Shown here in pieces: positions 45,701-46,688 of a DNA stretch of 64,000 nucleotides; the first letter of the stretch is position 1, and every line of letters begins with the position of its first letter. The stretch lies in IMG/VR virus record IMGVR_UViG_3300042371_001161, positions 55,749 to 119,748 of that record; one strand, written 5' to 3'. Both the position numbers and the translations under genes were made by a program. The notes beneath the pieces were generated by a model. That model was not told the origin of the DNA and searched no databases. It saw only the letters and a list, made by a program, of their open reading frames with translations. The stretch comes from a virus.

Positions 45701-46688
45701 GCTCAATGAGACAACCCGAAACAGTATAATTAGCCTCTACGAGGAGGCGGAAAGCAATTTCAATGCCTATCAACTCGCGCTGAAAGAATATGATGAAACT
45801 GGAGTTTGGGATGGGCCAAAGTTGGCCCAAAACACAAGAGTTCCAGGCAGGGATAGGGACCGCAAGGAATATCAGACCTACGTAGCGGGCCAAGATGACG
45901 AACGCATTAATCCTGAATATTTGAGGGACATTGCTCGTGGCTATATTGATAATGGACGAAGGGTGATGGCGCGATATGAATATGCCTATCCGCTAGCAAA
46001 AGCAGGCAAAGAACATCTTAGTTATAACCATGCTTCCTTCGGGCCTAGCAGGGGATACGTGCGCAATGCCTTCCCAACAAGTAAAACATATCTCGTAAGA
46101 GTTCCCGAGCGAGAGGTAGTAGAAGGGTTCCCGTCTCAGGAGTATCAGATTTTTGAGGCCAGAACACCGATAGCAAGTTTTGAGGTACCAAATCAGTTCA
46201 ACGTTCCAAATATGACAGAAGTAGAAGATGCTTCTATCGCCCTTTTTGAACAGGCCGCACAGAAACACCTTTCAAGTGGTGCAACAGACGACAACGGGGG
46301 TCGCCTACTACGAAGTATGCAATTGCATGACGATGAATTCGAGAAAAAATATAATCAGAAAGTCCCTAACGGAGACGGAGATTGCTTTAGTGAAGCAATA
46401 GAGCAGGCAAGAGATTTGGCCGAAACTTATGAAAGCATGAAAATAGCTCATGGCTATCCCCTTGGAACGGGAGGAGATGCCGAAGGACTCAGGTTCCCGC
46501 ACGCATGGAACGAATTCATGAGAGACGGCGTCGAGTGGGTTAGGGACTACTCTAATGGGAATGAAGTTGAAATCCCGAAGGCTGTTTATTACGCCATTGG
46601 CAACATTGCAGAGCAGGACGTAAGTGTATTCAGCCTTGAAGAAGCAGAAAAGAGCATGAGCGAAAATGGACACTATGGGCCCTGGTAA
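36771..46688 (+). CDS. 3,305-aa polyvalent protein or polyprotein: 2 GNATs, 2 zincin-like, ART-like, DEDDh exonuclease, C-terminal papain-like domain
   Basis: QRRGLA and QGHGIG GNAT motif A; HDLFGH and HEYGH...EAIAE; IDYETTG...NAVFD...HNADAD; GDCF...HAW...RD; 10 exact LSSG motifs. Confidence 0.9.
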   Translation: MSVDNNEFHIPFEETRRGVDSNTEEKAALGRLGRYLGSRATNRPTIGQRRRGRGGGRGVEIPTGGKPGTRNPTGSRRDVDGDGWADEGTKKPVWVGMGNTEPASKPKPQAQRQTAKRTETEVAKKLSSGLEQLSPLERYDYGPVVAAKKIKSKDTEYRLVIRNDFDIGIYLESDFNKARDVLVERFNKLGANPFNDKPSPLGPEDIDDRDVLRFMLDNDKTIKTMSAMQVWSPGGGSRTEVFQINTRPKHQRRGLAAEMFNTHRETFPELDLQHSDALSEDGRAFSKAVPATSNMESPDRPSSLSSGKKYQELVDAQPELTEEKLRQIDELNELLRSDLLDSADSYSEDTDVFGTGIDILNDSPERAAQRKRVHDLLREIFSGEIELEEDIIVTATNGEKINLGKTVVVDVAESFEALGWQVEIDEVSEEDIQLVQDQTFEPFLSADSTGIGLAARFQFKLTPTADAAERLTAAGVPDEMIWDEMMSVGPGTQGEVQFGRSARMLSYFPGDKPTATMQHETFFLNSESQGHGIGSAFNARNEKIYEAIGQLKIFAAGTSNTEESIGATHWPRNGFTWAGEPGKQTFLGTIAEALDDTEQNWFSPEEKSRISSLIRKNPDTGLFETDSTPENLLKFQRATELFKEKELSILYVREVSKRKTPAGALSSGRIGTVKTEPVEMMRSTEFPKLGTKLIDSGGTPDPTSSQKQYMEFPVYEIDGKKFAFGNTDLGRFQPEFNTEDIEIVPLNPYAIVGLPKTSTEGQEWALKMFHAIQAVSLLDDIEAGRVGNRKVGLVAALTYAAKRGDKPALEELERLAKIGEELLVNNRRDFVSAAKVYNEQMWDVDGTYWDDTPNMQVVLGPTRTNEYGDTVRTTRALGIDDMFLVHQTSYKPQYDDDGNIILKPTGDFIPIDPNTGEQLLDPISGKPVAMPDRDSIHMTLNHMVKGHMWRNEPTESTSVIIVPLRDVLDANPGSLDNLFVVDTFLTPKPGEGLVIPMKKGKVVEGSGKELKESVHEALLEVGKLHNGHPEYITPTLLGGESFSETPNADDRVGVVALQDIPKEYPEYAEGVVGSPHADHPSVRLAEFDNFYVNSASSRMAAYDYGRLSPNAKLRIYDSNSDKYSSARIETIYEDSGFSSGRVQRRTPKSGANLADAFDEPREVTQEEATRMGSSREVLTSKRVAERIIKKIEEKTGTELTTNQKNTIENTIPGLLDEIAEKTLLDVEVSDAFSETGEQLLSSIAIDIASDGIPFVSADPIPQLAEQIPDKRDWSTVELPKRDDVLSILDEALKDTLIFKNNVWLDTDGNIVARKIDKDGSSSLEFESEEARTRFPLLEMIAPLGFVIAGDKLSLPRLQQDTLPKPYIEAWKKHSEFMVELSRRAGKLMGDEGLFVQGSRRIHNSSTYIRGYIGGITDPSKFNMGLTGKALQDSHDLFGHLGTGRGFDRHGEWANDLAMMSIIDHPDSPLTPKEKLAVKHLHYLLYSANRIKEGRNDEAKDTTGIVQRINRARTILDVAYQDVGDTRTSTPRVYAGDFGSVIKKLDAASTTKGLSSGRKSIYEADPEDVELALAYDALGMSNRLASGRERPRILARPILRRPTIEPGRRAVKGYGKPDASGNEVRRNSNKWLAGMTPEEISRVIIPSSQAEHFEMWADDMAGGSWRTNSKEREFLQKYYDELRANKNSLDIDYSPENVKATQELVEGMLKSSPQMLWMFENFGSPMIVSFTREAMEGFEVSPEMKERLELSRQQRGAEKSQFISGLSSPAFGLIGLAPRALIDRESMTTNEKGVYPINLDPARIPQPRDAHVDRSLHGVVMHEYGHWLHYRAAWDSEANGKSRKEKSFYGSGDIGDPRYVAALEVADEYMNPDADDEAIKIWSEFIDLTERSAEEMFGANRDKALTATSYGNVNKREAIAEAFVAIMHPNKDMPKLALSKKLRDDVYALAGVDPSNLPWAARTDGRPTIQLSSNAETRVAPDGERSVMSRIFDVVRTGEGRTSTPSRKESLSSGKKPHTPKWKSVEDIIDYAAVGALPDHDQQQKEQVMSESVRDWEEWMPCRQIRMASYELAGIKDYSDRDPNIDETRGFWGDAMRFDATVSPEARTEQARYIMANIVDSLLNKGKYDRQPYLYRAMTFSSPEEAKQFFDAMQVGAQVDIPLIAFVDKGPSPSGGHFLTKFGTDALLVLEDFPGAYKAEGTFEPLFNSTDESDTLYNINEFAESILAGVERGEIDEENIEFDTEFANRLIKLVEDYRESRDPSERRRLKTEMGEALEETGNESINLEWEGEPLPEDHEGYYEALYYHESLYDESSNRSPREHISGGRLEVISVEPDPAGLYKEVVTLRQVGAFDPQEKGALVLKTDGQARSAALSSGNRNNSYNLVAIETDDSTPDMLESLKEKLGDALVSHETSTVDLGARGQTNVRKKHTFTISSEKLRNTHAHNYATNRSFMAQIQELSSGAKPPQYPRKPTMGAFIGSADSEFDGITNWEDFKSAIADKEIVFIDYETTGLKFDKFNESAGNGSPTQIGAVKMKNGEVIARFNVFVNPGMPMSEWEKWSQDNLKDGDGNPITDAYLADKPSIAEAHRQLVEFMGDTELMGMQNAVFDNEVLEDALKESGIEWRPKGIIDTKEISDMVLPKWSETNPDAPFRVNKDGTKSPSNSLGDITKYLGVDLGDKHHNADADAEATAKVLQAIVDGAIENNWPADVLDKGKRRDKESKTQIKFEKAVSEFEDAKRKFIEDSEQESLSSGGDTLSSGSTILSQWMDVTASDSFGKSGSELRNTFGRADLERLQKVLQDEQSALSKTIDEWQKTGVWNGETNGVALPRTKNPKSGITRNISAEESSGMGDKDTLSSTFNGYLSQIEKQLDHVNERLINLDRMENDGDIAHVNAVSIADLPNFAALAERGKKIRESRGSWEDREWSLTKDDPDAMWLIHTGAPILEGGVLDPSFTLPKGGDGTYLRQGMDTQRLNETTRNSIISLYEEAESNFNAYQLALKEYDETGVWDGPKLAQNTRVPGRDRDRKEYQTYVAGQDDERINPEYLRDIARGYIDNGRRVMARYEYAYPLAKAGKEHLSYNHASFGPSRGYVRNAFPTSKTYLVRVPEREVVEGFPSQEYQIFEARTPIASFEVPNQFNVPNMTEVEDASIALFEQAAQKHLSSGATDDNGGRLLRSMQLHDDEFEKKYNQKVPNGDGDCFSEAIEQARDLAETYESMKIAHGYPLGTGGDAEGLRFPHAWNEFMRDGVEWVRDYSNGNEVEIPKAVYYAIGNIAEQDVSVFSLEEAEKSMSENGHYGPW

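What the first reader, a model, noticed from the sequence alone, without database searches (positions are those of the whole stretch)
46281..46688. C-terminal papain/transglutaminase-like Cys-His-Asp module: candidate LSSG protease
Seen: the roughly 135 aa after the last LSSG (46269) contain NGDGDCF (Cys3205), FPHAW (His3244) and VRDYS (Asp3259). Known: this C...HxW...D order and spacing is typical of papain-fold transglutaminase-like peptidases, and viral polyprotein proteases recognising LxGG-type sites are cysteine proteases. Inference: this domain releases itself and processes all three giant proteins in trans. The zincin modules are alternative candidates.
Basis: partly seen in the sequence, partly recalled or inferred. 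Interest (0 to 1): 0.82.

Follow-up and report, generated by a model that had tools for sequence, protein, structure and literature searches.

The report
Swappable Cys-His-Asp cargo enzyme module
The last 135 residues of this phage's 3305-residue protein are a real, strongly conserved, unnamed transglutaminase/papain-fold Cys-His-Asp enzyme domain, but it is an optional cargo module (usually a small separate gene in other phages) and not the protease that cuts the Leu-Ser-Ser-Gly joints.

Summary
Observation confirmed. In 261 homologous domain copies they are conserved 252/252, 253/253 and 249/254.

An AlphaFold model (pLDDT 90.8) puts Cys at a helix N-terminus and His and Asp on a hairpin. 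Nearly all structural neighbours are papain/transglutaminase-fold enzymes (NTAQ1, SseI, LapG, protein glutaminase, PMT-C3), at modest Z (up to 5.8). Sixteen of 78 relatives weakly hit Pfam Transglut_core3. The family has no Pfam, NCBIfam or PHROG name.

- Of 12 related phage genomes at least 90% complete, 11 lack the domain, and one has it as a separate 128-residue gene.
- Two complete genomes have three LSSG-punctuated giants each and no copy.
- The same cassette sits behind LSSG, GMRS, SLRS, SSRS or NPWHDEIGRF joints, depending on the host giant.
- Most homologues are stand-alone proteins of about 110-140 residues, for example Mycobacterium phage Barnyard gp61.

Best reading: a cargo thiol hydrolase (amidase, deamidase or peptidase) freed by another protease. 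That cutter is unresolved. The S78 prohead protease is in 5/5 complete relatives tested and the three zincins in 3/5.

Earlier reports of this scan already described the LSSG joint code on this genome and Cys-His-Asp cargo modules on other DNA.

The parts
36771..46688 (+). Giant 3, a 3305-aa polyvalent-type protein cut by [LF]SSG into 12 modules. The finding is module 12.
   Evidence: RNase_T exonuclease at aa 2506-2697.
46269..46280 (+). Last LSSG joint (aa 3167-3170), the N-terminal border of the cassette
   Evidence: An equivalent lineage-specific joint lies 25-35 aa before the GDC motif in 20 giants.
46281..46685 (+). Cys-His-Asp module (aa 3171-3305), a minimal transglutaminase/papain-fold domain
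   Evidence: AF2 pLDDT 90.8, pTM 0.82. Fold hits. 1269 homologous representatives.
46302..46352 (+). N-terminal helix of the module (domain residues 8-24, motif HDxxFxxKY). It is kept in giant-borne copies and in the G023 solo gene.
46383..46385 (+). Cys3205, predicted nucleophile, first residue of helix 35-46 of the domain
   Evidence: (252/252)
46449..46451 (+). His3227 (HG motif), a second nearly invariant His of unknown role
   Evidence: 250/253
46500..46514 (+). H-A-W-N-E: His3244 (predicted general base) and Glu3248. Recalled from memory, this is the transglutaminase-core signature HAWxE.
46545..46547 (+). Asp3259, third triad residue, at the end of the hairpin's second strand, 15 residues after His
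   Evidence: (249/254)
46677..46685 (+). Nearly invariant C-terminal G-P-W. In 56 of 147 tallied homologues this motif lies at, or one residue from, the C-terminus.
1038..1469 (+). Peptidase_S78 prohead protease domain at the N-terminus of giant 1, a candidate LSSG cutter
   Evidence: E 1.2e-11. Present in 5/5 complete relatives.
3801..4172 (+). MPTase-PolyVal zincin (HETIH at 3948-3962) in giant 1, a candidate LSSG cutter
   Evidence: E 1.7e-39. Present in 3/5 complete relatives, all with [LF]SSG-type joints.
13199..13213 (+). HEIAH motif of the putative zincin module in giant 2
42231..42245 (+). HEYGH motif of the putative zincin module (module 6) in giant 3
25019..25030 (+). L-S-S-R in the major capsid protein (aa 95-98), at the likely border between the delta domain and the mature protein

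Best explanation
Residues 3171-3305 form an autonomous, catalytically competent domain of about 105-135 residues from the transglutaminase-like (papain-fold) superfamily. The triad is Cys3205-His3244-Asp3259. It belongs to a large family, mostly from uncultured phages, that has no database name. It is one exchangeable cargo cassette among the LSSG-delimited modules of this phage's giant polyvalent proteins. Inferred: a different protease cuts the last LSSG and frees it. That protease is either the S78 prohead protease fused to giant 1 or one of the three zincin modules. Inferred, target unknown: the freed domain then acts as a thiol acyl-enzyme hydrolase (amidase, deamidase or peptidase) on a host or phage substrate, probably in the infected cell. 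It is not the enzyme that processes the LSSG joints.
For: Fold and active site.
- The AF2 model has pLDDT 90.8, with Cys35 at the N-cap of a helix and His74 and Asp89 on a beta-hairpin.
- Counting both end residues' positions, the triad is spaced Cys+39=His, His+15=Asp. SseI (C178/H216/D231) and PMT-C3 (C1165/H1205/D1220) are spaced +38/+15 and +40/+15 (PMC3498931).
- 16 of 78 relatives hit Pfam Transglut_core3 and 10 of 78 hit Transglut_core, weakly.
- The triad is essentially invariant in 261 copies.

Cargo cassette, not processing enzyme.
- The domain is absent from 11 of 12 related genomes at least 90% complete.
- G001 and G003, both complete with terminal repeats, each carry three [LF]SSG giants (9+4+4 and 4+4+9 sites) and no copy. 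The best hmmsearch --max hit was E=0.41.
- G023 has it as a separate 128-aa gene.
- LSSG modules are reordered between relatives.
- The internal copy in P0088 is flanked by LSSG on both sides.
- The same cassette follows LSSG, LASG, GMRS, GVRS, SLRS, SSRS or NPWHDEIGRF joints, according to the host giant.
- About 33 of 49 viral loci hold stand-alone genes with heterogeneous neighbours.
- Fusions include ART-PolyVal.
- Barnyard gp61 is a solo gene among small non-structural genes, and Barnyard's first 50 kb has no giant other than the tape measure.

Other protease candidates are conserved: S78 in 5/5 complete relatives and the zincins in 3/5.
Against: - No cleavage, packaging or activity has been measured.
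- The window's own domain gives no direct Pfam hit.
- The evidence does not rule out that in this particular phage the domain cuts its own upstream LSSG in cis.
- Bona fide endopeptidases exist in the same superfamily: LapG, and (recalled from memory, not checked here) the lasso-peptide B proteins of Transglut_core3.
- The substrate is unknown, so 'effector' is inference from the company the domain keeps.
Confidence: 0.65

Rival explanations
1. One reading: the C-terminal Cys-His-Asp domain is the LSSG protease. It frees itself in cis and cuts all three giants in trans.
For: The fold is papain/transglutaminase-like with an intact, invariant triad. It lies directly after an LSSG. Relatives in the superfamily include true endopeptidases such as LapG.
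Against: 11 of 12 near-complete relatives lack it, and two of those were read in full and carry three [LF]SSG-punctuated giants each. It is a separate gene in G023. The cassette sits behind at least five unrelated joint motifs in other giants while staying 50-70% identical. Most homologues are solo genes in phages, and Barnyard's first 50 kb shows no giant polyprotein.
Confidence: 0.06
2. The domain is a virion-borne cell-wall hydrolase, an isopeptidase or amidase like the PeiW/PeiP or NlpC/P60 papain-fold lysins. It would help DNA entry through the wall.
Against: These hits rank below the cytoplasmic amidases and deamidases NTAQ1, SseI and protein glutaminase. No wall-binding domain was found among fusion partners, which are ART-PolyVal and a sigma-70 region 4 HTH. 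The other modules of the giant with a recognisable fold are a nucleic-acid enzyme and a putative zincin. Barnyard gp61 lies among small non-structural genes. The phage has its own VanY plus PG_binding_1 lysin at 54683-55531.
Confidence: 0.1
3. The domain is a protease with a narrow cis role only. It trims its own joint or its own C-terminal tail after the invariant G-P-W, and has no trans substrate.
For: The invariant G-P-W lies at or within one residue of the C-terminus in 56 of 147 tallied homologues. Others carry 8-15 extra residues that such trimming could remove.
Against: Solo genes of about 110 aa with nothing attached are the commonest form. An enzyme with no trans substrate would hardly be kept with an invariant triad in over 1000 sequence clusters.
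Confidence: 0.05
4. On who does cut LSSG: one of the three zincin modules, rather than the S78 prohead protease, is the LSSG peptidase, as Iyer et al. 2017 proposed for MPTase domains of polyvalent proteins.
For: All three zincin modules are present in the three complete relatives G001-G003, which have [LF]SSG-type joints, and absent from the two with I[ST]G[RA]M joints. An LSSG pair also occurs in a tape-measure-like tail protein that would not be inside the prohead. The MPTase processing hypothesis is in PMC5512222.
Against: That pattern rests on a single lineage split. S78 is the only candidate in 5/5 genomes. The capsid protein carries a conserved L[ST]S[RH]E at its likely maturation border only in the [LF]SSG lineage: 1.99 versus 0.07 [LFIM]SSG sites per 1000 aa of giant. 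That too is one evolutionary change.
Confidence: 0.35

Closest known systems
Transglutaminase-like superfamily (Pfam Transglut_core PF01841 and Transglut_core3 PF13471; papain-fold Cys-His-Asp enzymes)
   Same: GxC at a helix N-terminus, an HAWxE strand and an Asp one strand later. There are weak profile hits in 10 and 16 of 78 relatives, and transglutaminases 2, 3 and factor XIII are in the structural hit list.
   Different: The core is much smaller, about 105 residues. The window's copy gives no direct Pfam hit. It has extra invariant features: an HG motif, a YY motif and a C-terminal GHYGPW. No member has been characterised.
SseI and Pasteurella multocida toxin C3 domain (glutamine deamidases), NTAQ1 and protein glutaminase
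   Different: There is no detectable sequence similarity. Those are bacterial effectors or eukaryotic enzymes with larger domains. Deamidase chemistry here is only a possibility.
LapG / BTLCP (Peptidase_C93), bacterial transglutaminase-like cysteine proteinases
   Different: LapG is a periplasmic, calcium-dependent enzyme that cuts a single adhesin. No profile match was found.
Polyvalent proteins of phages and conjugative elements (Iyer, Burroughs, Anand, de Souza, Aravind 2017, PMC5512222)
   Same: They are giant multi-enzyme polypeptides with MPTase-PolyVal, ArdC-N and ART-PolyVal domains. Their modules also occur solo, and processing into units is predicted.
   Different: The paper's text names only zincin, assemblin-like, DD and LonC peptidases. 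It has no papain or transglutaminase-like domain (0 occurrences). There the assemblin-like protease is always C-terminal, whereas here it is N-terminal. An explicit tetrapeptide joint code is not described there.
T4 and phiKZ internal head proteins cut by the prohead protease at short motifs
   Same: Cargo proteins are cut at short repeated motifs by the head-maturation protease. This is the model for how the cassette would be freed.
   Different: Those proteases belong to other families (recalled from memory). The motif here is LSSG and cutting is unproven. An LSSG pair also occurs in a tail protein.

Membership tests
Papain/transglutaminase-like fold (Cys-His-Asp thiol enzymes) | Nucleophilic Cys at the N-terminus of an alpha-helix | tested here: met
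   The helix at domain residues 35-46 starts at Cys35. Cys is 252/252.
Papain/transglutaminase-like fold (Cys-His-Asp thiol enzymes) | His on a beta-strand and Asp/Asn on the neighbouring strand about 15 residues later | tested here: met
   Strands 74-81 and 84-89 form a hairpin with His74 and Asp89. His is 253/253 and Asp 249/254.
Papain/transglutaminase-like fold (Cys-His-Asp thiol enzymes) | Overall structural similarity to solved members | tested here: met
Papain/transglutaminase-like fold (Cys-His-Asp thiol enzymes) | Triad atoms within hydrogen-bonding distance in 3D | not testable with these tools
   Model coordinates are not returned. Only secondary structure and alignment ranges are available.
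Pfam Transglut_core / Transglut_core3 | Profile match above the gathering threshold | tested here: inconclusive
   The window's domain gives no hit even at E<=10. 16 of 78 and 10 of 78 relatives hit weakly, with best E 2.9e-5 and 8.2e-5. One relative carries a precomputed PF13471 hit.
Polyprotein-processing cysteine protease for the LSSG joints | Present wherever its substrates (LSSG-punctuated giants) are present | tested here: not met
   It is absent from 11 of 12 genomes at least 90% complete. G001 and G003, read in full, have three [LF]SSG giants each and no copy.
Polyprotein-processing cysteine protease for the LSSG joints | The cleavage motif tracks the protease | tested here: not met
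   The same cassette (50-73% identical) follows LSSG, GMRS, SLRS, SSRS or NPWHDEIGRF joints, according to the host giant.
Polyprotein-processing cysteine protease for the LSSG joints | Cys-dependent cleavage at LSSG | not testable with these tools
   This needs expression of wild-type and C3205A forms.
PMT-C3 / SseI glutamine deamidases | Cys-His-Asp with His about 39 after Cys and Asp 15 after His, in a papain-like core | tested here: met
PMT-C3 / SseI glutamine deamidases | Sequence homology or deamidase activity | tested here: inconclusive
   There is no sequence hit to any PDB chain and no match to a deamidase family in Pfam. Activity is untestable here.
Polyvalent-protein cargo domain (Iyer et al. 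2017) | Occurs in giant multi-domain phage proteins with hallmark PolyVal domains, and also solo | tested here: met
   Giants with MPTase-PolyVal, ArdC-N and S78 are in the same phage. There is a fusion to ART-PolyVal. Solo forms dominate.
Cell-wall hydrolases of papain fold (PeiW/PeiP, NlpC/P60, CHAP) | Closest structural kin, with wall-binding or secretion context | tested here: inconclusive

The most novel reading that the evidence does not exclude
This is the founding example of an uncharacterised family, mostly from uncultured phages, of minimal (about 105-residue) transglutaminase-fold enzymes. They would be delivered with the DNA when built into giants, or made early when solo, and would deamidate, cleave or de-conjugate a specific host protein such as a defence or translation factor. 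That would make them a new class of phage counter-host effector, with SseI/PMT-like chemistry.
Probability: 0.3. Interest if true: 0.65.

Novelty: new member of a known kind. Interest (0 to 1): 0.4.

Why it matters
- It removes one candidate from an open question in this phage group, namely which enzyme reads the LSSG joint code. That leaves the S78 prohead protease and three zincin modules, and co-expression can separate them.
- It defines a large unnamed enzyme family: at least 1269 clusters at 50% identity, and 825 clusters at 90% identity among proteins of 58-282 residues. The catalytic triad is invariant, and only one phage in the 50,697-record cultured collection carries it (Mycobacterium phage Barnyard gp61). 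That gives an entry point for experiments.
- It shows that fold alone (papain-like) should not be read as 'protease' in polyprotein contexts.

Tried and rejected
- Direct family searches of the domain gave nothing: Pfam at E<=10, PHROGs, NCBIfam, and a PDB sequence search with the profile (only noise).
- A BFVD fold search gave one unnamed hit and weak 'papain fold toxin' rows.
- Megablast of the giant against cultured phages found no match. tblastn with three family members found only Barnyard.
- Covariation between each lineage's joint motif and the capsid maturation border was tested with a BLOSUM-scored motif scan. The border ranked first only in L068, second in the window and third in L004 and L080. 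Elsewhere a conserved L-N-G-G or other sites scored higher, so the test is inconclusive.
- The association between capsid L[ST]S and [LF]SSG giants looks strong, but it rests on a single change on the capsid tree: one independent pair and no statistical power.
- The search for related loci failed with the whole-family alignment because no stretch was conserved enough. It found nothing with one solo protein. A sub-alignment worked.
- The search of earlier findings by sequence was unreachable.
- Neighbours of solo genes showed no conserved partner, so context gave no clue to the substrate.
- A metal-site reading of Cys/His/His/Glu was considered and set aside, because the fold, the spacing and (recalled from memory) the HAWxE signature match thiol enzymes.
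- The antisense ORF at 46308-46877 was considered and set aside, because the + strand frame has over 1000 homologues.
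Full report
**What is there.** The window is part of a 119.7-kb record of an uncultured phage, estimated 71% complete. It carries an HK97-type capsid gene, ribonucleotide reductase, primase-helicase, SSB and a VanY lysin. There are three giant ORFs: 960-9623, 11510-20059 and 36771-46688. They hold 4, 3 and 10 exact LSSG copies, plus one FSSG. No other long ORF in the window has an in-frame copy. The finding is the last module of the third giant, aa 3171-3305 (nt 46281-46685). It follows the last LSSG at nt 46269-46280.

**Is the Cys-His-Asp pattern real?** Yes.
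- A full-library phmmer search found 1269 representative proteins at E<=1e-3.
- In an alignment of 78 proteins, G33, C35, H74, G107 and W135 are invariant. H57, G58, A75, W76, E78, D89, Y103 and Y104 are nearly so.
- Over 261 domain copies, Cys3205 is 252/252, His3244 is 253/253 and Asp3259 is 249/254.

**Fold.**
- AlphaFold2 with this alignment gave pLDDT 90.8 and pTM 0.82. Cys35 is the first residue of a helix, and His74 and Asp89 lie on the two strands of a hairpin.
- Foldseek against the PDB gave no hit below E 1e-3. Its best rows were protein glutaminase, PMT-C3, SseI and NTAQ1.
- His lies 39 residues after Cys and Asp 15 after His. SseI (Cys178/His216/Asp231) gives 38 and 15, and PMT-C3 (Cys1165/His1205/Asp1220) gives 40 and 15 (PMC3498931).
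- The alignment ranges start three to four residues before the catalytic Cys in both chains.
- At sequence level the window's copy hits nothing in Pfam, PHROGs or NCBIfam. However, 16 of 78 relatives weakly hit Transglut_core3 and 10 of 78 hit Transglut_core.
[quoted passage not shown] 'Protease' therefore does not follow from the fold.

I fetched 80 loci around capsid genes 71-100% identical to the window's and searched their parent records with the family profile.
- The window's own record served as a positive control (E 3e-45).
- Of 12 records at least 90% complete, 11 have no copy.
- I read two complete genomes with terminal repeats in full. G001 has giants with 9, 4 and 4 [LF]SSG sites, and G003 has giants with 4, 4 and 9. 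An unfiltered hmmsearch of all their ORFs found nothing better than E 0.41.
- The twelfth genome, G023, encodes the domain as a separate 128-residue gene with its own start codon, among small genes.

**It behaves as a cassette.**
- Cutting giant 3 at its [LF]SSG sites gives 12 modules. Relatives carry the same modules in different orders. The exonuclease module, for example, is at 2464-2755 here, 873-1157 in G003 and 113-408 in P0091.
- An internal copy of the Cys-His-Asp module in P0088 has LSSG on both sides.
- In 20 giants with the module, a joint lies 25-35 residues before the GDC motif. That joint is the host giant's own punctuation: LSSG or LASG, GMRS or GVRS, SLRS, SSRS, or FANPWHDEIGRF.
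- The joint therefore follows the lineage, not the cassette.

**Distribution outside giants.**
- Most homologues are proteins of about 105-140 residues. There are 825 clusters at E<=1e-5 in the 58-282 residue range. Where a source gives a name it is 'hypothetical protein', apart from one UniRef label, 'DUF4388 domain-containing protein'.
- Of 49 viral loci, about 33 hold solo genes, 8 hold mid-size fusions and 8 hold giants. The domain can be N-terminal, internal or C-terminal.
- Neighbours of solo genes share no family. Fusion partners include ART-PolyVal and a sigma-70 region 4 HTH.
- Among 50,697 cultured-phage records only Mycobacterium phage Barnyard has it. There it is gp61, 114 aa and 34% identical, lying among small non-structural genes. 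In the first 50 kb of the 70.8-kb genome that I inspected, the head protease and scaffold are ordinary and the only giant is the tape measure.

**Who cuts LSSG?** This stays unresolved.
- Peptidase_S78 is present in 5/5 complete relatives tested. It is fused to a giant in three and to a protein of about 800 residues in two.
- The MPTase-PolyVal, HEIAH and HEYGH modules are present in G001-G003, which have [LF]SSG-type joints, and absent from the two genomes whose giants use I[ST]G[RA]M.
- The capsid protein carries L-S-S-R at aa 95-98. L[ST]S is kept at this position in 56 of the 74 relatives aligned. Giants in those loci have 1.99 [LFIM]SSG sites per 1000 aa, against 0.07 in the other 18. On the capsid tree this is a single change, so it carries no statistical weight. 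A motif-scoring test was also inconclusive.
- A tape-measure-like tail protein upstream of the window also has two LSSG sites. That fits a strictly intracapsid protease poorly.
- My odds are S78 about 45%, a zincin about 35%, host or other about 13%, and the Cys-His-Asp module at most 7%.

**Comparison and novelty.**
- The giants are polyvalent proteins in the sense of Iyer et al. 2017.
- That paper's text lists zincin, assemblin-like, DD and LonC peptidases, and never mentions papain or transglutaminase-like domains. I did not check its supplementary files.
- The module is thus a new, unnamed family inside a known superfamily, used as a new cargo type in a known kind of protein.
- Earlier reports of this scan on the same genome described the joint code and left the cutter unresolved. 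Reports on other genomes describe Cys-His-Asp cargo modules and joints that match the phage's own head protease. I used these only as leads.

Noticed in passing
window 25019-25030 (major capsid protein aa 95-98): The capsid protein has L-S-S-R at the likely border between its delta domain and the mature protein. L[ST]S is kept at this position in 56 of the 74 relatives aligned, and other residues stand there in lineages whose giants use other joints. This hints that one protease reads both, but it rests on one evolutionary change.
   Followed up: partly
G000:C1:34961-39841 (- strand), upstream of the window: A 1627-aa tape-measure-like protein has LSSG at aa 44 and 584. Its orthologues in G001 and G003 also have two [LF]SSG sites. 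A 279-aa ORF at G000 12463-13299 has one.
   Followed up: partly
window 36771-46688 versus P0007-P0012, P0088, P0091, G001, G003: Modules delimited by LSSG are shuffled in order and content among relatives. Modules 10 and 11 (aa 2756-3169) had no match in the relatives compared. Module 7 usually lies directly before the Cys-His-Asp module, but not here.
   Followed up: partly
window 36771-37154 (giant 3 aa 1-128) and giant 1 of G003 (aa 542-655): A conserved leader of about 100 residues, with an R-R-D-V-D-G-D-G-W motif, heads the giant-3 orthologues. It also recurs inside the giant-1 orthologue of G003. It may be a packaging or targeting module.
   Followed up: no
P0053, P0060, P0069, P0104, P0142 (giants from other phages): Some giants that carry the same cassette are punctuated by a 12-residue repeat, F-A-N-P-W-H-D-E-I-G-R-F (or A-N-P-Y-H-D-E-L-G-R-F), present 4-8 times, instead of a tetrapeptide.
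   Followed up: no
window 1038-1469: The S78 (assemblin-like) prohead protease is at the N-terminus of a polyvalent giant. Iyer et al. 2017 state that assemblin-like peptidases are always at the C-termini of polyvalent proteins.
   Followed up: no
window 45027-45059: Two LSSG sites lie only 7 residues apart (LSSGGDTLSSG), which makes a 7-residue 'module'.
   Followed up: no
window 46308-46877 (- strand): A 189-codon antisense ORF overlaps the module. It is probably spurious, because the + frame has more than 1000 homologues.
   Followed up: partly
G004 and G005 (loci L051, L058, L099, L100): In two complete relatives the giants use I-[ST]-G-[RA]-M joints. The S78 protein there is only about 800 residues long, it carries the same motif after its protease domain, and all three zincin modules are missing.
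   Followed up: partly
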